NCBI GenBank assembly: GCA_964519285.1 | Contig: CAZFJG010000001.1 | Location: 664 to 64,663 of the forward strand | Reading direction: 5' to 3' | Length of the DNA: 64,000 nt | DNA from: an uncultured Synergistales bacterium | GTDB lineage: Bacteria; Synergistota; Synergistia; Synergistales; JAFGMB01 | Part shown: piece by piece, positions 19,089 to 39,665 of the stretch | Layout of the letters: every line of letters starts with the position of its first letter | How positions within the stretch are numbered: position 1 is the stretch's first letter | Made by a program: the position numbers and the translations under genes | Notes under the pieces: model-generated | Database searches by the model: none | What the model saw: the letters and a program-made list of their open reading frames with translations, nothing else | What the model was told of the DNA's origin: nothing

Positions 19089-19316
19089 TTGCTTATAGTT
19101 GCTTGTCAGGTATGCGGTCAGACCGGAATTTTGAGAGGATCGCCGGAAAAAGACGGTATGGTGAGAACCAGCTGGATATGCAACCATTGTGGAACAGGTC
19201 AGGTGGTGCAGGTTCCGGTAAGTTCAGATGCAAGGAGCAGTAACCTGAGAGATATTGTTTTGGGTTTGCCGTCGGAATGGGCATCAGGAACTCCAGTTTA
19301 CAAAGGGAACCTGTAG
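19089..19316 (+). CDS. Small Zn-ribbon protein (hypothetical)
   Basis: 75 aa. TTG 19089 lies 6 nt after ggagg (19078-19082). Contains CQVCGQ...(x21)...CNHCGTG. The TAG stop overlaps a candidate GTG start of the next gene. Confidence 0.55.
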   Translation: MLIVACQVCGQTGILRGSPEKDGMVRTSWICNHCGTGQVVQVPVSSDARSSNLRDIVLGLPSEWASGTPVYKGNL

Positions 19317-22055: not shown

Positions 22056-22119
22056 TACTATATTGGAGAATATGGTCAGATAATATTTGTTTCATTATCC
22101 TATGGAGGTGCAATTATCT

Positions 22120-22617
22120 ATGGCAGAGATCAAGGGTTGGCATGTTGAGCAGATGGATTTCCCGGAGGACTGTAATATTATTGTTGGTCAGAGTCATTTT
22201 ATCAAGACAGTAGAGGACCTATATGAAATTATGGTCACTTCTTCTTCTACAGTAAAGTTCGGTTTAGCTTTCTGCGAAGCATCCGGAGACTGTCTTATTA
22301 GAACTGACGGCAATGATCCAGATCTTGTAAATGTTGCTACAGCCAATGCTCTCAAGATAGGTTCTGGACACAGTTTTGTTCTTATAATGAGGAACGGCTT
22401 TCCTATTAATTTTTTGAATCAGCTCAAAAATTGTCAGGAAGTGTGCAGGATATTCACAGCTACAGCCAATCCAATTCAGGTTCTGATATGTGAAACAGAT
22501 CAGGGTAGAGGAATTGCAGGAGTTGTTGATGGTTTTATGCCAAAGGGAGTAGAATCATCTGTGGATGTGAATAAACGCAAAGCTCTTCTAAGAGATGTTA
22601 TTGGATATAAAAGGTGA
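22120..22617 (+). CDS. Adenosine-specific-kinase-family protein (PF04008-like, mostly archaeal family; function uncertain)
   Basis: The track start is TTG 22087. ATG 22120 lies 10 nt after ggaggtg. Contains IVGQSHFIKTVEDLYE, GSGHSFVLIMRNGFPINFLN, ATANPIQV, GRGIAGVVDG and LLRDVIGYK. The family was recognised from memory. Confidence 0.65.
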   Translation: MAEIKGWHVEQMDFPEDCNIIVGQSHFIKTVEDLYEIMVTSSSTVKFGLAFCEASGDCLIRTDGNDPDLVNVATANALKIGSGHSFVLIMRNGFPINFLNQLKNCQEVCRIFTATANPIQVLICETDQGRGIAGVVDGFMPKGVESSVDVNKRKALLRDVIGYKR

Positions 22618-22640: not shown

Positions 22641-22668
22641 TTGATAAATGAGATTCCCTGTTTATTAA
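22641..22668 (+). promoter_or_regulatory. Candidate promoter for the DRTGG/kinase/hydrogenase-like/PHP module
   Basis: TTGATA (22641-22646), a 16-nt spacer, then TATTAA (22663-22668). Pattern match only. Confidence 0.3.
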
Positions 22669-22712
22669 AAAACAGAGTTTTTGTTTTAAACCCGGGGAGG
22701 TAAGTTTATATA

Positions 22713-23078
22713 ATGAACCTTAGAGAGGTTTCTAAAGCATTTGGTGGAATAGTCCTTTATGGAGAAGAACTGCTGGATCAGATGGATATTGAATACGCAT
22801 ACGGTGCAGATCTAATGAGTGATGTTCTCGCTTTTGCAAAACCTGGATCATTGTTGCTGACCGGATTAACGAATGTTCAGATAATAAGGACCTCGCAGAT
22901 GCTTGATATTCCGGCTGTGATTTTTGTCAGGGGAAAGCGTCCAAGAGAAGAGACTGTAAAATTGGCGGAGAGTCTGAAAATGCCCGTACTGCTTTCCTGC
23001 AAAAGTATGTTCGAGACATGTGGGCTTCTTTATCAGGCCGGATTAAAACCCTGTACGATCCCAAACAGAGAGGTGTAG
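22713..23078 (+). CDS. DRTGG-domain protein (copy 1)
   Basis: 121 aa. SD ggggagg lies upstream. Contains SLLLTGLTNVQIIRTSQMLDIPAVIFVRGKRP...MPVLL...ETCGLLYQAGL, typical of stand-alone DRTGG proteins. Confidence 0.75.
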   Translation: MNLREVSKAFGGIVLYGEELLDQMDIEYAYGADLMSDVLAFAKPGSLLLTGLTNVQIIRTSQMLDIPAVIFVRGKRPREETVKLAESLKMPVLLSCKSMFETCGLLYQAGLKPCTIPNREV

Positions 23079-23086
23079 AGTCTGAT

Positions 23087-23512
23087 TTGAACGAAGTAAG
23101 TGAAAAATTCACTGTCCAGGGCGGTGATTTTGCAAGTGTCGGAAAAGCTTCAACTGCAATGAAATCAGCCCTTGAGATGATAGGTATTCCTTCTGCTGTG
23201 ACGAGGCGGGTATCTATAATTGCTTATGAAGCAGAGATGAATCTCGTAATTCATGCTGGCGGAGGAATTATTCAGTACTCAGTTTTTCCTGATAGAATTG
23301 AAATAACGGCAGAAGATAATGGTCCTGGTATTGAAGATATCGAACTTGCAATGGAGGAAGGTTATTCTACGGCATCTGATGAGATCAGAGAACTAGGTTT
23401 CGGAGCAGGAATGGGTCTTTCAAATATAAAACGCAATTCTGACGATCTCAAAATAGACTCTATTCCTGAAGAAGGGACATCTCTGCTGGCCGTGGTTTTA
23501 TTAGAGTCCTAA
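23087..23512 (+). CDS. GHKL-type ATPase / RsbW-SpoIIAB-like serine protein kinase (annotated in other genomes as anti-sigma regulatory factor)
   Basis: N-box is YEAEMNLVIHA, G1 is DNGPGI and G2 is GFGAGMGLSN. Homologues begin near the GGDF..(A/V)G.AS motif, which favours TTG 23087. The track start ATG 23018 would overlap the upstream gene by 61 nt. Confidence 0.75.
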   Translation: MNEVSEKFTVQGGDFASVGKASTAMKSALEMIGIPSAVTRRVSIIAYEAEMNLVIHAGGGIIQYSVFPDRIEITAEDNGPGIEDIELAMEEGYSTASDEIRELGFGAGMGLSNIKRNSDDLKIDSIPEEGTSLLAVVLLES

Positions 23513-23530: not shown

Positions 23531-24838
23531 ATGACCAATGGTGTCAAGGTTCAGGGTAATTTGTGTACTGGATGTGCTAATTGTATACAGAGTTGTCCTA
23601 CTGAAGCCATGAGGGTTATAGACGGATGTATTCAAATTATTGATGAACTATGCGTAGATTGCGGTGAATGTATAAGAAAGTGTCCTACCAAAGCAATAAC
23701 AATGAATGAAGACGACTGGGATCTTATCCATTCAATAGGAGAAACTGTGGTTGCAAGTGATCCTGTCTTTTACGTACAGATGAGTAATTATTCTGGTCAG
23801 TCCCTGGTTAAAGAAGCCCTTGGTTACTGGAACATTACAGATATATCCGAGATCATGGGAACAGCCTTTGATCTTGCCGCATACAGTGTGGCCAGGATAC
23901 TGGAAGAAGAAGGTAAACAGAATCTCCCACTGATAAGCACATATTGTCCGGCAGTTTTAAGGCTTGTGGAGACTAATTTCCCGGAACTTCTTGGAAGGAT
24001 AGCTCCAGTTGATTCTCCTCTTGAGGTTGGGGTGGCTCTGTGGAAAAAGATGACAGACAGAAAAGACAAGGTAACTCTGCTGGCGCCCTGTCCAGCAAAG
24101 ATAACCCTCGTTCATAATCCGGAGGGTAGAGAAACAAGTAATATAGATTTTAGCGTATCCGTAGGTAAGCTGGTGAAGGCTCTTCTTGCCGGAGGTCCTA
24201 AAGTCAAGGGCAACTTTCCGGAAGTGACCAACAACAGATGGCTTGAATGGGCCGGATCGGGTGGGGAAGCCGAGCACATTGCACGTTTCTCAAAAAGGCC
24301 ACTCAAGACCATATCGGTTTCAGGAATGCAGAATACCATTGATGTGCTTAAAGAAATGGAGCTTGGAAGATTAAGAGGAATAGATTTTATCGAATGCCGA
24401 ATTTGTGAAATGGGTTGCATCGGTGGTATCGGAAACGCTGAATCCCGGTTTTTGTCAAAGTTGCGTCTCAAGAATATGAAAACTAACTGGCAGCTGAATG
24501 ACAAAGAAACTGAAGAACTCAAGGAGTGGCACAAAACAGATATATGGAGATTGAAAAAGGAATTGAAACCCTCCCAGCGTGAACCACTGTCAGATGATCT
24601 CAATGAAGCCATGCAAAAACTGAAAGAAATGAACAGAATTTATTCAGAGTTGCCACAGATCAACTGCGGTTCCTGTGGCAGACCTTCTTGCAAGGCTATG
24701 GCCGAAGATATTATAAGGGGCCAGGGTGAGGTAAGCGATTGTATATTCAAGATAAGAGAAAACATCAGGGAGCTGGGGAAAGAAATTGTTGAACTTTCAG
24801 AAAAGATGCCACATACAATGAGAAGAAAGGATTTATGA
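23531..24838 (+). CDS. [FeFe]-hydrogenase-like Fe-S protein: 2x[4Fe-4S] ferredoxin domain, hydrogenase large-subunit-like core and a C-terminal Cys-cluster domain (putative sensor)
   Basis: 435 aa. Ferredoxin motifs are CTGCANCIQSCP and CVDCGECIRKCP. H-cluster-like motifs are STYCPAV, APCPAK and ECRICEMGCIGGIGN. The C-terminus reads CGSCGRPSCKAMAEDIIRGQGEVSDC. Confidence 0.8.
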   Translation: MTNGVKVQGNLCTGCANCIQSCPTEAMRVIDGCIQIIDELCVDCGECIRKCPTKAITMNEDDWDLIHSIGETVVASDPVFYVQMSNYSGQSLVKEALGYWNITDISEIMGTAFDLAAYSVARILEEEGKQNLPLISTYCPAVLRLVETNFPELLGRIAPVDSPLEVGVALWKKMTDRKDKVTLLAPCPAKITLVHNPEGRETSNIDFSVSVGKLVKALLAGGPKVKGNFPEVTNNRWLEWAGSGGEAEHIARFSKRPLKTISVSGMQNTIDVLKEMELGRLRGIDFIECRICEMGCIGGIGNAESRFLSKLRLKNMKTNWQLNDKETEELKEWHKTDIWRLKKELKPSQREPLSDDLNEAMQKLKEMNRIYSELPQINCGSCGRPSCKAMAEDIIRGQGEVSDCIFKIRENIRELGKEIVELSEKMPHTMRRKDL

Positions 24839-24842
24839 GATT

Positions 24843-25181
24843 TTGAAAATAGAAGAGTTGTGCTCAAAACTTTCACTGAACGTTCTGGTACCTCTTGAAG
24901 ATTATTCTGAAGAAATTAATACAGCCATAACAGGAGACCTCCTGAGTTTTATAATGGGTCATGCTCTTCCTGGATCAGTCTGGCTGACCGTTCAGAACCA
25001 TCTTAATGTTGCGGCAGTCGCTGTTCTGAAAGAGATGCCAATGATAGTCCTCACTGCGGGAAGGCAGCCTTCAACTGATCTTGTGGATAGATGCAGGGAA
25101 GAAGGAATTTGTCTGTCCACTACTCCAGAAAGTACTTTTGCCGTAATAAGCCAGATGACAAAATTGGGACTAAAGGGATAA
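24843..25181 (+). CDS. DRTGG-domain protein (copy 2)
   Basis: 112 aa. The TTG start is 4 nt after the previous stop. Contains GDLLSFIMGHALPGSVWLTVQNHLNVAAVAVLKEMPMIVLTAGRQP...GICLSTT, paralogous in layout to 22713-23078. Confidence 0.7.
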   Translation: MKIEELCSKLSLNVLVPLEDYSEEINTAITGDLLSFIMGHALPGSVWLTVQNHLNVAAVAVLKEMPMIVLTAGRQPSTDLVDRCREEGICLSTTPESTFAVISQMTKLGLKG

Positions 25182-25185
25182 AATA

Positions 25186-25965
25186 ATGAACTCCTATCAA
25201 GCGGATCTCCACATTCATACTGTGCTTTCACCCTGTGGTGATCTCGGAATGGGGGCTCCTGAAATTGTAGAAAGAGCCAAAGAAGCAAAATTAAGTGCAA
25301 TTGCAGTTACAGATCATAATGCTGTATTAAACTATCCAGCAGTAGCCGAGGCTGCTTCAAAGCTGGCTCCAGAAATCCTTGTTATCCCGGGAACAGAAGT
25401 TCAGACTGTTGAGGATATTCATGTTCTGGGGCTGTTCCCGGATTACAGTGCTGCTCTGAGTTTTCAGGAATGGTTGCAGTGCGGTCTGGGAGGAATAAAG
25501 AACGATCCTGACATATTCGGGTACCAGCTTGTAATTGATAGCAGTAACTCCATCCTCGATGAATTTGAAAGACTCCTGATTCAGGGAGTTAAATACAGTA
25601 TAGATGAAGTCATCGAAAAGATAAGGGAACATGAAGGAATCAGCATACTTGCCCACATAGACAGACCGTCTTTTTCCTATATTTCTGTATTAGGGCCCAT
25701 ACCGGACGACCTCGAGGTAGATGCTCTTGAAATATCAGGAAATGTAGACAGGGTATCCGAGGAAAAATTCTGCAGAAAATATCCTGAGAGGATCTTTACC
25801 CGTTCTTCCGATGCCCATTTTCTAAAAGATATAAAAAATCAAAACTCAACAGAATTGCTTCTTGCGGAGATGTCATTTAAAGAACTGGCTATGGTCTTCG
25901 ACACGTCGGAAAAGTTCAGGAAAGTGACAAGTCCATGCGAGTCAAGGAACCTTCAGAAAGAGTAG
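25186..25965 (+). CDS. PHP-domain metal-dependent phosphoesterase
   Basis: 259 aa with N-terminal ADLHIHTVLSPCGD, then AVTDHN, LAHIDRP and SSDAH, which are PHP His/Asp metal-ligand motifs. Starts 4 nt after DRTGG copy 2. Confidence 0.8.
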   Translation: MNSYQADLHIHTVLSPCGDLGMGAPEIVERAKEAKLSAIAVTDHNAVLNYPAVAEAASKLAPEILVIPGTEVQTVEDIHVLGLFPDYSAALSFQEWLQCGLGGIKNDPDIFGYQLVIDSSNSILDEFERLLIQGVKYSIDEVIEKIREHEGISILAHIDRPSFSYISVLGPIPDDLEVDALEISGNVDRVSEEKFCRKYPERIFTRSSDAHFLKDIKNQNSTELLLAEMSFKELAMVFDTSEKFRKVTSPCESRNLQKE

Positions 25966-38723: not shown

Positions 38724-39665
38724 TTGCCTTTTATTTCTGTTGTAACCGGTGATCCTGCTTCACAGAGCAGGATTCTGAAAGAGTATCTTTCAGAACTTGA
38801 GAAAAAAGGATATTCTCTTCAGGGGAGGCAGGAAGGTGGAGAGTGGTCTGCTCTCTTGTCTTCCCTGAGAACCGGAAGTCTTTTCGGACAGAGATCGGTC
38901 ATTGTTGTGGAAGAAGCGGATCAGCTTGGTAAATTACCGGAAGATCTCTCTTATCTCGTGGAAGAACATAGTGATTCGGGACTTGTACTTATTTACAAAG
39001 GAAAATTCAGAAATTTTTTTCAGCCAGAAACAGTAGATCTTATTGCAAAAGTTAAAGACAGTCCTGTCCCAGAGTGGAACGATCAGAGGGAGAGGTGGTT
39101 GTTTCGTCTGGCTCAAAAGAAGGAGATCAGGATCGATCCAGAGGCGGTCAGTCTTCTGGTAGAATGGATCGATAACCCCGAAGAAATAAGATCTGAACTT
39201 TTAAAACTTCATGCTGCAGCTGCTTCTTTCAAGGGAGTAGTAACAGTTGATATTCTTAGACAGCTGACTCTGGACGAAGGGCGTAAAAGTTTGCTATGCC
39301 TGCTGGACAGTATCTGTTTTGCTGCTGTTGGTGATGTCTTGAAGAATATAAGAATGACCAGAAGGAACGGGATGGATCTTTTGTATGTTATTGGTGCAGT
39401 ATATAACAGGATCAGGCTCTCCCTGTATTACGGACATTTCAGGCATTCAGGAGGTAAGCAACTTGAAAAGGTTCTAAAGGCGAGGAAATACCAGAAAAAA
39501 ATGGCCCTGGAAATGAACAGAAGGTTCAGTTCTGATTCTGTAGAAGATCTTGCTATCGGACTTATGGGTATAAGTTACAGGCAAAAAACAGGGAAATCAG
39601 CAGGATGGAAGGAATTTGAAAACCTTCTTTTGCGATTTATGACTGAAAAAGTACAAAAAAACTGA
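38724..39665 (+). CDS. holA: DNA polymerase III subunit delta (HolA-like)
   Basis: 313 aa with a TTG start. Contains SLFGQRSVIVVEEADQL and a helical C-terminal half. The synteny leuS-holA with convergent rpsT supports the call. The sequence signal is moderate. Confidence 0.65.
   Translation: MPFISVVTGDPASQSRILKEYLSELEKKGYSLQGRQEGGEWSALLSSLRTGSLFGQRSVIVVEEADQLGKLPEDLSYLVEEHSDSGLVLIYKGKFRNFFQPETVDLIAKVKDSPVPEWNDQRERWLFRLAQKKEIRIDPEAVSLLVEWIDNPEEIRSELLKLHAAAASFKGVVTVDILRQLTLDEGRKSLLCLLDSICFAAVGDVLKNIRMTRRNGMDLLYVIGAVYNRIRLSLYYGHFRHSGGKQLEKVLKARKYQKKMALEMNRRFSSDSVEDLAIGLMGISYRQKTGKSAGWKEFENLLLRFMTEKVQKN

What the first reader, a model, noticed from the sequence alone, without database searches (positions are those of the whole stretch)
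23531..24838. The hydrogenase-like protein keeps the four H-cluster cysteines but replaces the proton-relay and Met residues, and has an extra C-terminal Cys-cluster domain and no PAS domain
This is a by-eye alignment to the canonical catalytic motifs L1 TSCCPxW, L2 MPCxxKxxE and L3 ExMACxGGCxxGGGQP.
- L1 here is STYCPAV. The cluster-ligating Cys is kept, and the preceding proton-relay Cys is Tyr.
- L2 here is APCPAKITL. The Cys and Lys are kept, Met becomes Ala, and the Glu position is Leu.
- L3 here is ECRICEMGCIGGIGN. Both Cys residues are kept with CxxxC spacing, and Met becomes Arg.

So the ligands for a [4Fe-4S]/diiron site are retained, while the residues needed for fast proton transfer are not. 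That is the pattern expected of a sensor or of a Nar1/Narf-like Fe-S protein, not of a turnover enzyme.

Additional modules:
- An N-terminal 2x[4Fe-4S] ferredoxin (CTGCANCIQSCP, CVDCGECIRKCP).
- A charged, probably helical linker of about 70 residues.
- A C-terminal CGSCGRPSCKAMAEDIIRGQGEVSDC, which resembles the putative Fe-S domain found at the N-terminus of RnfB-type proteins.

Unlike the HydS-type sensory hydrogenases I recall, there is no PAS domain.
Basis: partly seen in the sequence, partly recalled or inferred. Interest (0 to 1): 0.6.

Follow-up and report, generated by a model that had tools for sequence, protein, structure and literature searches.

The report
Group D putative H2-sensing [FeFe]-hydrogenase
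The gene encodes a PAS-less, sensor-type [FeFe]-hydrogenase of the already described group D (M2e) class from a Synergistota bacterium, so the protein is ordinary, but it sits in a conserved five-gene kinase/phosphoesterase module that may be this class's unidentified signalling apparatus.

Summary
ORF 23531-24838 (+, 435 aa) has two N-terminal [4Fe-4S] motifs, an [FeFe]-hydrogenase H-domain and a C-terminal Cx2Cx4Cx16C Fe-S domain, and no PAS. Profile alignment to solved hydrogenases shows the four H-cluster cysteines are homologous. Cys299, Met353 and Met497 (CpI numbering) are Tyr138, Ala185 and Arg290.

This is not new. It is the published M2e/group D "putative sensory" class, whose model enzyme TamHydS binds a real H-cluster and turns over H2 slowly. 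The window protein aligns end to end with TamHydS (34% identity, E 8e-82). It keeps most of the group-D proton path (Ser243, Glu246, Glu288). Tyr and Arg at these positions recur within the group.

Context findings:
- The gene is the centre of a module: DRTGG, SpoIIAB/RsbW-like ATPase, HydS, DRTGG-like, PHP.
- All five genes are present in order in 66 of 71 loci with room, across several phyla.
- Natural HydS-DRTGG and ATPase-HydS fusions exist.
- In Bacillota and other non-Synergistota loci a HydB/NuoF-like ORF (with a group-A HydA in the loci inspected) often lies beside the module. In Synergistota, including this window, none was found.

Verdict: a new member of a known kind. The H2-sensing function is inferred, not shown.

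The parts
22713..23078 (+). Gene 1 of the module: small DRTGG-domain protein (121 aa)
   Evidence: Pfam DRTGG PF07085, E 3e-6, covering the whole domain. A homologue lies upstream in the same order in 73 of 77 loci with room.
23018..23512 (+). Gene 2: SpoIIAB/RsbW-like GHKL ATPase, a putative serine protein kinase. The longest ORF starts at 23018. The likely start is TTG 23087 (141 aa).
   Evidence: - Pfam HATPase_c_2 / HATPase_c, E 1e-7.
- NCBIfam anti-sigma F factor SpoIIAB, E 2.6e-11, below the family cut-off.
- The only PDB matches are SpoIIAB, E 0.004.
- The N-box (EAEMNLVIHA), G1 (DNGPGI) and G2 (GFGAGMG) are read directly from the sequence.
- TTG 23087 follows an AGAGAGGTG ribosome-binding site, and homologues are 142-144 aa.
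- A homologue lies immediately upstream of HydS in 77 of 77 loci with room.
23531..24838 (+). Gene 3: the finding itself, a group D (M2e) [FeFe]-hydrogenase homologue of 435 aa
23531..23710 (+). HydS residues 1-60: 2x[4Fe-4S] ferredoxin (F) domain with two CxxCxxCxxxCP motifs
   Evidence: Pfam Fer4 families. Cys12/15/18/22 and Cys41/44/47/51 are invariant in the family alignments.
23807..24427 (+). HydS residues 93-299: H-domain core (Pfam Fe_hyd_lg_C). It holds L1 (23930-23956, LISTYCPAV), L2 (24077-24109, LLAPCPAKITL) and L3 (24386-24433, FIECRICEMGCIGGIG).
   Evidence: Pfam E 1e-21. Profile alignment to solved [FeFe]-hydrogenases. Cys139, Cys187, Cys292 and Cys296 are invariant in 47 Synergistota and 43 wider group D sequences.
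24650..24748 (+). HydS residues 374-406: C-terminal Cx2Cx4Cx16C Fe-S domain (Cys379/382/387/404), followed by a long terminal helix (residues 405-425)
   Evidence: - Pfam FeS PF04060, E 7e-13.
- It matches the N-terminal cluster domain of solved RnfB chains.
- The cysteine numbers are the same as in TamHydS, where C379A converts the [4Fe-4S] cluster to [3Fe-4S] (PMC13104023).
- The helix comes from the AF2 model.
24843..25181 (+). Gene 4: second small DRTGG / HprK-N-like protein (112 aa). It starts 4 nt after the HydS stop codon.
   Evidence: - Pfam Hpr_kinase_N E 8e-6 and DRTGG E 2e-4.
- A homologue lies directly downstream in 74 of 81 loci with room.
- In other lineages this domain is fused to the C-terminus of HydS: P0133, P0170, P0241, P0262, P0266, P0267.
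25186..25965 (+). Gene 5: PHP-family metal-dependent phosphoesterase (259 aa). It starts 4 nt after gene 4.
   Evidence: - Pfam PHP, E 1e-9.
- The best PDB match is the PHP 5'-3' exoribonuclease 7ug9, E 1e-5.
- The N-terminal DLHIHT and C-terminal SSDAH metal motifs are read from the sequence.
- A homologue lies downstream in 75 of 81 loci with room.
22656..22690 (+). Hairpin followed by a T-run between the upstream adenosine-specific kinase gene and the module. It probably terminates the upstream gene, making the module its own transcription unit.
   Evidence: Sequence read (CCCTGTTTATTAAAAAACAGAG then TTTTTGTTTT). The stem was flagged by the scan on the - strand. This is a pattern match only.

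Best explanation
What it is
- The protein is a member of [FeFe]-hydrogenase group D (subclass M2e), the PAS-less relatives of the HydS sensory hydrogenases. It comes from an uncultured Synergistota bacterium.

Shown by homology
- It has binding sites for two N-terminal [4Fe-4S] clusters, an H-cluster (a cubane on Cys139/187/292, with Cys296 as the bridging ligand to the diiron subsite) and a C-terminal [4Fe-4S] cluster on Cys379/382/387/404.
- It lacks the group-A proton relay. It carries most of the group-D alternative path (Glu246, Glu288, Ser243), with Ser264 in place of the outer Asp.

Inferred from the characterised homologue TamHydS
- It binds a genuine H-cluster and reacts with H2 slowly and with comparatively high affinity. 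That suits reporting H2 or the redox state rather than carrying metabolic flux.

Inferred from gene context
- The signal leaves through the products of the same operon, not through a PAS domain.
- A SpoIIAB/RsbW-like GHKL ATPase (probably a serine kinase) is encoded just upstream.
- Two small DRTGG proteins flank the pair. The downstream one occupies, in natural fusions, the position that PAS holds in group C.
- A PHP phosphoesterase probably resets the system.

Proposed mechanism
- The H2-dependent state of the H-cluster changes the conformation around the juxtaposed N- and C-terminal cluster domains.
- That change gates the kinase acting on a DRTGG protein or another substrate.

Output
- In many non-Synergistota loci the likely target is the hydABC-type hydrogenase operon alongside.
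- In Synergistota the module stands alone among housekeeping genes, so the target lies elsewhere and is unknown.

My confidence differs by step: family membership about 0.9, a bound diiron subsite about 0.75, the operon partners as the signalling apparatus about 0.5.
For: Family membership
- Architecture and motifs.
- Homology of the four cysteines.
- Fold.
- End-to-end alignment with TamHydS: residues 3-430, 34% identity, E 8e-82, both proteins 435 aa, identical numbering of the C-terminal cysteines.
- In a search of 1.84 billion representatives, the 150 best hits were mostly full-length proteins of about 410-460 aa. 207 clusters scored E<=1e-30.
- In a neighbour-joining tree the Synergistota clade falls among 136 group D-like sequences, with group-A HydA as outgroup. 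BLOSUM distance is 0.69 to TamHydS and 0.86 to group A.
- A Synergistota protein (Thermovirga lienii) is already in the published list of 70 group D enzymes.

Diiron site
- In 47 Synergistota homologues Glu246, Glu288 and Arg290 are invariant. Lys190 and Tyr138 are at least 90% conserved.

Biochemistry of the class
- PMC8163306, PMC10407848 and PMC13104023.

Module
- All five genes are present in order in 16 of 16 Synergistota loci and 50 of 55 other loci with room. The ATPase is upstream in 77 of 77.
- Genes are 4-18 nt apart.
- HydS-DRTGG fusions and one ATPase-HydS fusion exist. None of the ten long relatives has a PAS.
- The ATPase resembles SpoIIAB.
- A HydB/NuoF-like ORF lies within the flanks in 37 of 67 non-Synergistota loci and 0 of 20 Synergistota loci. 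The 580-600 aa ORFs inspected beside it are group-A HydA.
Against: - No group D enzyme has been shown to sense H2 in vivo.
- In TamHydS the C-terminal cluster is not reduced by H2. The authors take this to argue against redox signalling through that cluster (PMC13104023).
- Nothing in the module has a DNA-binding or other recognisable output domain.
- The ATPase scores well below the SpoIIAB/RsbW family cut-offs (43.6 bits against 135), so kinase activity is an assumption.
- PHP enzymes include nucleases and nucleotide phosphatases as well as protein phosphatases.
- The Synergistota clade is a deep, separate branch (34% identity to TamHydS). It differs at several residues the literature calls conserved in group D:
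  - Met353 is Ala here rather than Ser/Thr.
  - Asp265 is Ser.
  - Asp378, reported as 100% conserved, is Asn here.
  - TamHydS Arg32, Lys35, Arg42 and Lys58 are not kept.
- Tyr138 and Arg290 are bulky. I could not inspect the model coordinates to check that the diiron pocket is still open.
- No hydrogenase or HydE/F/G maturase gene lies in the 64-kb window.
Confidence: 0.6

Rival explanations
1. A cubane-only Fe-S protein (Narf/Nar1-like logic). The Synergistota clade keeps the four cysteines but no longer holds a diiron subsite. It would act as a redox or Fe-S status sensor, feeding the same kinase module.
For: - Bulky or charged residues sit at two positions that frame the diiron site in CpI: Tyr138 for Cys299 and Arg290 for Met497.
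- There is no hydrogenase or maturase gene in the window or within 10 kb in 20 Synergistota loci.
- The clade departs from several 'conserved' group D residues.
Against: - Aromatic residues at position 299 together with Arg/Lys at 497 are common across group D. They occur in 19 of 135 representatives, several of which (e.g. P0127, P0162, P0240, P0200) lie outside the Synergistota clade. So they are not a clade-specific loss signature.
- Lys190 (the Lys358 equivalent, which H-bonds a cyanide ligand in group A according to established structural knowledge) is at least 90% conserved in the clade. The path glutamates Glu246 and Glu288 are invariant.
- TamHydS, which has equally non-canonical residues at these positions (Ala, Ser, Leu), incorporates [2Fe]-adt and is active (PMC8163306).
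Confidence: 0.15
2. A slow but metabolic hydrogenase. It would be a ferredoxin-linked monomeric enzyme that makes or consumes H2 for redox balancing, with the neighbouring genes regulating it rather than being regulated through it.
For: - TamHydS is bidirectional and catalyses both H2 evolution and oxidation (PMC8163306, PMC10407848).
- The N-terminal 2x[4Fe-4S] domain is the usual electron entry route of monomeric hydrogenases.
- Many sources annotate homologues simply as hydrogenase large subunit.
Against: - The specific activity of TamHydS is about 0.1 umol H2 per mg per min, orders of magnitude below group A (PMC10407848).
- The canonical proton relay is absent.
- The gene is almost never found without the ATPase (77 of 77), and it occurs fused to the ATPase or to DRTGG. 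That pattern is typical of signalling proteins rather than of metabolic enzymes.
Confidence: 0.15
3. A regulatory accessory subunit that binds directly to a hydrogenase or another redox complex and tunes it post-translationally, with no phosphorylation cascade.
For: - In non-Synergistota loci the module is frequently adjacent to hydABC-type genes: 19 of 31 loci with both flanks of at least 7 kb.
- The module has no transcription-factor domain.
Against: - In Synergistota the module is never next to such genes (0 of 20), yet it is fully conserved.
- The ATPase keeps intact ATP-binding motifs.
- Solved HydABC complexes contain no such subunit (descriptions).
Confidence: 0.1

Closest known systems
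TamHydS, Thermoanaerobacter mathranii group D / M2e [FeFe]-hydrogenase (WP_013150113; Land et al. 2020, PMC8163306)
   Same: - Same length (435 aa) and same domain order.
- Same four H-cluster cysteines and the same C-terminal Cys379/382/387/404.
- No PAS, and Cys299 is not conserved.
- The group-D proton-path residues Ser249, Glu252 and Glu289 correspond to Ser243, Glu246 and Glu288.
- Glu392, Asp393 and Asp403 are kept.
[quoted passage not shown]
   Different: - Only 34% identity, and a separate deep clade.
- Position 299 is Tyr, not Ala. Position 353 is Ala, not Ser. Position 497 is Arg, not Leu.
- Asp265 is Ser, Asp378 is Asn and Ser384 is Arg (Arg384 is invariant in Synergistota).
- TamHydS Arg32, Lys35, Arg42 and Lys58 are Ile, Cys, Leu and Ile here.
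- TamHydS lies upstream of a bifurcating hydrogenase and next to an AraC regulator. This gene has neither nearby.
TmHydS / group C (M2f) sensory [FeFe]-hydrogenases (Chongdar et al. 2018, as cited in PMC8163306)
   Same: N-terminal 2x[4Fe-4S], an H-domain lacking the Cys299 relay and the canonical methionines, and the Cx2Cx4Cx16C C-terminal cluster domain.
   Different: Group C carries a PAS domain after the C-terminal cluster. This protein ends in a single helix. Long relatives carry DRTGG at that position instead of PAS.
Group A [FeFe]-hydrogenases (CpI, DdHydAB, CbA5H, HydABC HydA)
   Same: H-domain fold and the four cluster-ligating cysteines. Lys358 and the L3 glutamate are kept.
   Different: - Cys299, Met353 and Met497 are replaced.
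- The H-domain is shorter: the profile alignments show long group-A insertions between L2 and L3.
- There is an added C-terminal Fe-S domain.
- Distance is 0.86 against 0.69 to TamHydS.
RnfB N-terminal Fe-S domain (PF04060), and the 'RnfB' label that JGI gives many homologues
   Same: The C-terminal CGSCGRPSC...C segment matches the N-terminal cluster domain of solved RnfB chains. Ferredoxin-type motifs are also shared.
   Different: RnfB has no hydrogenase H-domain and is part of a membrane complex. The 'RnfB' annotation on homologues is a domain-level mislabel.
SpoIIAB / RsbW partner-switching serine kinases (for the neighbouring ATPase)
   Same: Size (about 141 aa), a GHKL fold signature with N, G1 and G2 boxes, and best NCBIfam and PDB matches.
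   Different: - Scores are far below the family cut-offs.
- No STAS-domain antagonist or sigma factor is in the operon.
- The partners here are DRTGG proteins, a hydrogenase-like protein and a PHP phosphoesterase rather than a PP2C phosphatase.

Membership tests
[FeFe]-hydrogenase group D / subclass M2e | Architecture: N-terminal 2x[4Fe-4S] domain, H-domain and C-terminal Cx2Cx4Cx16C motif, with no PAS | tested here: met
   Pfam domains and cysteine spacing. No PAS hit, and only a helix follows Cys404.
[FeFe]-hydrogenase group D / subclass M2e | The four H-cluster cysteines are retained | tested here: met
   Column-for-column alignment with solved hydrogenases. The cysteines are invariant in both family alignments.
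[FeFe]-hydrogenase group D / subclass M2e | The proton-relay Cys299 is not conserved (mostly Ala) | tested here: met
   Tyr138 here. Across 135 representatives the position is A 41, S 24, F 19, T 13, Y 8, C 1.
[FeFe]-hydrogenase group D / subclass M2e | Met353 replaced by a hydroxyl residue (Ser/Thr), described as well conserved in M2e | tested here: not met
   Ala185 in this protein. Close relatives have A, S, T or V. Among 135 representatives the position is T 62, S 49, A 13. This is a minority state, not a disqualifying one.
[FeFe]-hydrogenase group D / subclass M2e | Group-D-specific proton path Glu252, Glu289, Ser249, Asp265 (TamHydS numbering) | tested here: inconclusive
   Three of four are present (Glu246, Glu288, Ser243). 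The outer Asp265 is Ser264, as in 21 of 135 representatives.
[FeFe]-hydrogenase group D / subclass M2e | Clusters phylogenetically with group D rather than groups A, B or C | tested here: inconclusive
   - The protein is nearer to TamHydS than to group A, and it lies inside the set of M2e-architecture sequences when rooted on group A.
- No group B or group C reference sequences were available.
- The tree is neighbour-joining without support values.
- The literature lists a Synergistota protein (Thermovirga lienii) as group D.
[FeFe]-hydrogenase group D / subclass M2e | [quoted passage not shown] | tested here: met
   The ATPase gene ends 18 nt upstream. The same holds in 77 of 77 loci.
[FeFe]-hydrogenase group D / subclass M2e | Often encoded in the same operon as, or upstream of, a group A (bifurcating) hydrogenase | tested here: not met
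   None in the 64-kb window, nor within 10 kb in 20 Synergistota loci. A HydB/NuoF-like ORF is present in 37 of 67 other loci. The literature says 'often', so this is not strictly defining.
[FeFe]-hydrogenase group D / subclass M2e | Binds an H-cluster, with slow bidirectional H2 turnover and a low Km for H2 | not testable with these tools
   Known only for TamHydS (PMC8163306, PMC10407848).
[FeFe]-hydrogenase group C / M2f (HydS with PAS) | PAS domain C-terminal to the Cx2Cx4Cx16C cluster | tested here: not met
   No PAS in Pfam or NCBIfam scans. The protein ends 31 residues after Cys404.
[FeFe]-hydrogenase group A (prototypical / bifurcating) | Motifs TSCCPxW, MPCxxKxxE and ExMACxxGC, with the Cys299 relay and Met353/Met497 | tested here: not met
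   The motifs here are STYCPAV, APCPAKITL and ECRICEMGC.
Nar1 / Narf-type hydrogenase-like Fe-S proteins | Eukaryotic cytosolic Fe-S assembly factors with cubane clusters only and no diiron subsite | not tested
   No reference sequences were compared. All significant relatives found are bacterial proteins with M2e architecture. Cofactor content cannot be read from the sequence.

The most novel reading that the evidence does not exclude
- The five-gene module (DRTGG, SpoIIAB-like ATPase, HydS, DRTGG, PHP phosphoesterase) is the unidentified signal-transduction machinery of the PAS-less group D hydrogenases.
- In it, DRTGG stands in for PAS as the receiver next to the C-terminal cluster.
- In Synergistota the module has been uncoupled from any hydrogenase operon. 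There it would act as a stand-alone H2/redox-responsive phospho-switch with a target elsewhere in the genome.
- I found no paper in the searched library that links DRTGG or PHP proteins to hydrogenases.
- The most recent TamHydS paper says its complex partners in the native host are not known.
Probability: 0.4. Interest if true: 0.55.

Novelty: new member of a known kind. Interest (0 to 1): 0.33.

Why it matters
The protein adds another, rather divergent, sequence to a class that has been named since 2010-2016 and studied biochemically since 2020. That alone matters little.

The surroundings are more useful. How group D enzymes could pass on a signal without a PAS domain is an open question in that literature. 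Two observations give concrete, testable candidates for the missing partners:
- the near-universal DRTGG / ATPase / HydS / DRTGG / PHP gene order across several phyla;
- natural HydS-DRTGG and ATPase-HydS fusions.

The Synergistota version stands alone among housekeeping genes and has a Tyr/Arg-lined active-site pocket. It is a natural variant that could help separate sensing from cis-regulation of a neighbouring hydrogenase.

Tried and rejected
1. TamHydS sequence. I tried to obtain it from the genome collection. The 80 loci returned held no Thermoanaerobacter. I rebuilt the protein instead from the machine-read, codon-optimised coding sequence in the supplement of PMC13104023.
   - I repaired the reading-frame errors by eye.
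   - At three of the repaired places a residue is inferred rather than read (about residues 161, 294 and 337).
   - All 21 published residue numbers I checked fit the reconstruction, so the residue mapping is sound.

2. HydA adjacency. My first test for an adjacent group-A HydA required TSCCP and found only 2 loci. The neighbouring HydA proteins carry TSCSPGW, as does the solved A. woodii HydA1. I therefore used the HydB/NuoF FMN motif as the marker.

3. Long relatives. I suspected that relatives of 530-610 aa were group C proteins with PAS. Of the ten scanned, six have a DRTGG match, one is an ATPase fusion, and three have a C-terminal extension that Pfam does not recognise.

4. Tyr138/Arg290. 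I considered whether these mark a clade-specific loss of the diiron site. The combination recurs across group D, so this was rejected as a signature.

5. Literature. Searches linking DRTGG or PHP proteins to hydrogenases found nothing relevant. A search for Synergistota hydrogenase and maturase genomics also found nothing usable.

6. DRTGG structure. The first DRTGG protein has no sequence match in the PDB.

7. Model geometry. I could not read the model coordinates, so pocket volume and cysteine geometry were not measured.

8. Promoters. The promoter-like matches around the operon are no more frequent than in shuffled sequence and were not used.
Full report
**Observation**

The ORF at 23531-24838 on the + strand is real and encodes 435 residues.
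- Pfam finds two 4Fe-4S ferredoxin motifs (residues 7-58), the [FeFe]-hydrogenase large-subunit domain PF02906 (residues 93-299, E 1e-21) and the RnfB-type "putative Fe-S cluster" domain PF04060 (residues 374-406, E 7e-13). There is no PAS domain.
- The cysteines fall in three groups: 12/15/18/22 and 41/44/47/51; then 139, 187, 292, 296; then 379/382/387/404, spaced Cx2Cx4Cx16C. Two further cysteines lie at 33 and 289.

The by-eye motif assignments hold.
- A direct search of the PDB aligns LPLISTYCPAV with LPMFTSCCPAW, and IDFIECRICEMGCIGG with LHFVEVMTCPEGCISG, of the HDCR hydrogenase subunit.
- A profile of 43 family members aligns L1, L2 and L3 column for column with CbA5H (E 4e-39), T. kivui HydA1 and HDCR HydA2. 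CpI scores E 1e-33.
- In CpI numbering, Cys300/355/499/503 are Cys139/187/292/296.
- Cys299 is Tyr138, Met353 is Ala185, Lys358 is Lys190, Glu361 is Leu193 and Met497 is Arg290.

An AlphaFold2 model built on 47 homologues is confident (pLDDT 88.5, pTM 0.85). Its best structural matches are solved [FeFe]-hydrogenases (Foldseek E 1e-13 to 6e-17).

One refinement concerns the "70-residue linker".
- In the profile-to-PDB alignments, profile positions up to about 331-346 still align with the C-terminal part of group-A H-domains.
- Window helices 303-315 and 324-335 fall in that stretch.
- The real linker is therefore about residues 336-373.

**What it is**

The combination of features is the published definition of subclass M2e, or phylogenetic group D:
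- a 2x[4Fe-4S] domain, an H-domain without the Cys299 relay or the two methionines, and a C-terminal Cx2Cx4Cx16C motif;
- no PAS domain;
- often a histidine-kinase-like ATPase gene alongside.

The model enzyme of this class is TamHydS from Thermoanaerobacter mathranii (PMC8163306; PMC10407848; PMC13104023). What is reported for TamHydS:
- It incorporates the synthetic [2Fe]-adt subsite.
- It is bidirectional but very slow, about 0.1 umol H2 per mg per min.
- Its Km for H2 is comparatively low.
- Its C-terminal motif binds a [4Fe-4S] cluster that H2 does not reduce.
- The authors call the class "putatively sensory".

I rebuilt the TamHydS protein from the machine-read coding sequence in the supplement of PMC13104023. 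All 21 published residue numbers I checked fit the reconstruction.

The window protein aligns with TamHydS over residues 3-430 at 34% identity, E 8e-82. Both proteins are 435 residues long, and the four C-terminal cysteines have identical numbers.

| TamHydS | Window protein | Note |
|---|---|---|
| Ser249, Glu252, Glu289 | Ser243, Glu246, Glu288 | group-D proton path, kept |
| Asp265 | Ser264 | outer residue of the path, changed |
| Glu392, Asp393, Asp403 | same | kept |
| Asp378 | Asn378 | reported 100% conserved in 70 group D enzymes |
| Ser384 | Arg384 | Arg is invariant in the Synergistota clade |
| Arg32, Lys35, Arg42, Lys58 | Ile30, Cys33, Leu40, Ile56 | not kept |

**Organism and clade**

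- The nearest relatives are annotated Synergistales or Synergistaceae.
- The identical protein occurs on four metagenome contigs with the same gene order.
- A search of 1.84 billion cluster representatives gives a tight Synergistota group (40-56% identity). There is then a drop to 37% identity and below for the remaining full-length hits. In all, 207 clusters score E<=1e-30.
- A neighbour-joining tree rooted on group-A HydA sequences puts the window protein in a monophyletic Synergistota clade. That clade branches deeply within the 136 group D-like sequences. Distance is 0.69 to TamHydS and 0.86 to group A.
- The published list of 70 group D enzymes already contains one Synergistota protein, from Thermovirga lienii.

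**Are the unusual pocket residues special?**

They are not. Counts over 135 representatives:

| CpI position | Window residue | Residues in representatives |
|---|---|---|
| 299 | Tyr138 | A 41, S 24, F 19, T 13, Y 8 |
| 497 | Arg290 | R 35, L 16, N 16, Y 12 |
| 353 | Ala185 | T 62, S 49, A 13 |

- An aromatic residue at 299 goes with Arg/Lys at 497 far more often than expected: 19 against 8, 20 and 88 in the other cells, odds ratio 10.5, Fisher p 5e-7. This test is not corrected for phylogeny.
- Tyr138 with Arg290 is therefore a recurrent state of the family, perhaps an interacting pair. It is not a sign of degeneration.
- Within 47 Synergistota homologues Glu246, Glu288 and Arg290 are invariant. 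Lys190 and Tyr138 are at least 90% conserved.
- Conservation of the Lys358 equivalent and of both path glutamates makes sense only if a diiron subsite and proton delivery matter. This is the main argument against a cubane-only, Narf-like protein.

**Surroundings**

The gene is the third of five tightly packed + strand genes:

| Gene | Coordinates | Product | Key evidence |
|---|---|---|---|
| 1 | 22713-23078 | DRTGG protein | Pfam DRTGG |
| 2 | likely TTG 23087 to 23512 | 141-aa GHKL ATPase | best matches are the anti-sigma serine kinases SpoIIAB/RsbW; N, G1 and G2 boxes intact |
| 3 | 23531-24838 | HydS | this finding |
| 4 | 24843-25181 | second DRTGG / HprK-N-like protein | Pfam Hpr_kinase_N and DRTGG |
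| 5 | 25186-25965 | PHP phosphoesterase | metal-binding motifs intact |

I searched the ORFs of 87 related loci with these five proteins.
- All five genes occur in the same order in 16 of 16 Synergistota loci with enough flanking sequence.
- The same is true of 50 of 55 other such loci. These come from Bacillota, Atribacterota (Caldatribacterium), Syntrophorhabdus and others.
- The ATPase is upstream in 77 of 77 loci.
- The five exceptions keep at least ATPase-HydS. Two of them are from Spirochaetes.

Among longer relatives, six proteins have a DRTGG domain fused after the C-terminal Fe-S domain, and one has the ATPase fused to the N-terminus. Three have an unassigned C-terminal extension. None of the ten has a PAS. 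Such fusions are classical evidence that the separate proteins work together physically. DRTGG sits where PAS sits in group C.

**How the Synergistota version differs in context**

- In non-Synergistota loci a HydB/NuoF-like ORF of about 600 aa lies within the fetched flanks in 37 of 67 cases. The figure is 19 of 31 when both flanks are at least 7 kb.
- In the loci I inspected, a HydA of 580-600 aa lies beside it.
- One of these HydA proteins (L079) is 6e-204 to the T. kivui bifurcating HydA1.
- In Synergistota the figure is 0 of 20 (0 of 10 with full flanks).
- The 64-kb window is otherwise housekeeping. It holds the ribosomal-protein/SecY/Adk operon, an ECF transporter, MreB, a histidine operon on the opposite strand, RadA, NfeD, LeuRS, YidC, PNPase, ThrRS, PheST and MutS2. 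There is no hydrogenase or maturase gene.

**Most likely mechanism**

- Shown: the cofactor-binding sites, family membership, and the conserved operon and fusions.
- Inferred from TamHydS: a real H-cluster that reacts slowly with H2.
- Inferred from context: the H2-dependent state of HydS is read out by the ATPase/kinase and the DRTGG proteins, which are docked near the adjoining N- and C-terminal cluster domains. The PHP enzyme resets the system.
- Output: probably the adjacent hydrogenase operon in many non-Synergistota lineages, and unknown in Synergistota.
- Weak points:
  - No in-vivo evidence of H2 sensing exists for any group D enzyme.
  - The TamHydS C-terminal cluster does not respond to H2.
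  - The ATPase scores well below the SpoIIAB family cut-off.
  - PHP enzymes are chemically diverse.
  - The module has no recognisable output domain.

**Verdict**

- Its interpretation is essentially the textbook view of an already named class, which it did not recognise.
- The protein is a new, divergent member of a known kind.
- The module conservation, the fusions and the stand-alone Synergistota arrangement are the only parts I could not find in the searched literature. They concern the family as a whole rather than this locus.

Noticed in passing
window 23018-23512 (+): The longest ORF for the ATPase overlaps the preceding DRTGG gene by 61 nt. A TTG at 23087, preceded by AGAGAGGTG, gives a 141-aa product that matches the 142-144 aa homologues. 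The annotated start at 23018 is probably too far upstream.
   Followed up: partly
window 22656-22690: A hairpin (CCCTGTTT/AAACAGAG) followed by TTTTTGTTTT lies between the adenosine-specific kinase gene (22087-22617) and the module. It looks like an intrinsic terminator on the + strand. That leaves only about 25 nt for a promoter before the ribosome-binding site of the first module gene.
   Followed up: no
L020 15632-17422, L022 15706-17469, L071 15837-17594, L079 15705-17450: The group-A HydA encoded next to the module in Bacillota loci carries TSCSPGW instead of TSCCPxW. That puts Ser at the position of the cubane ligand Cys300. The solved, active A. woodii HydA1 (7q4v) has the same motif, so this is a known natural variant. 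It did defeat a motif search based on TSCCP.
   Followed up: partly
window 22087-22617 and loci L001-L017: An adenosine-specific kinase gene (PF04008) lies 0.1-3.5 kb upstream of the module in most Synergistota loci, and the histidine operon or radA lies downstream. The module is embedded in a conserved housekeeping neighbourhood near the ribosomal-protein operon.
   Followed up: partly
window 24662-24664 (HydS residue 378): The residue before the first C-terminal cluster cysteine is Asn, as it is in two of the close relatives displayed (P0003, P0009). A 2026 paper reports Asp at this position as 100% conserved in 70 group D enzymes.
   Followed up: partly
homologues P0012, P0014, P0027, P0039 and others: Many database entries for this family are labelled 'Na+-translocating ferredoxin:NAD+ oxidoreductase RNF subunit RnfB'. 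This is a mislabel driven by the shared Fe-S and ferredoxin domains.
   Followed up: no
window 38724-39665 (+): A 313-aa ORF directly after leuS has no Pfam match at E<=1e-5. A gene of similar size with no Pfam hit follows leuS in Thermanaerovibrio velox too (L005 17683-18600).
   Followed up: no
window 19089-19316 (+): A small 75-aa ORF with two CxxC pairs (zinc-ribbon-like) has no Pfam hit. A gene of similar size (72 aa) with no Pfam hit is called at the same position in a related contig (L007).
   Followed up: no
P0226, P0234, P0242: Three group D-like representatives have C-terminal extensions of about 120-150 aa that Pfam does not recognise. They could be divergent DRTGG, PAS or something else.
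   Followed up: no
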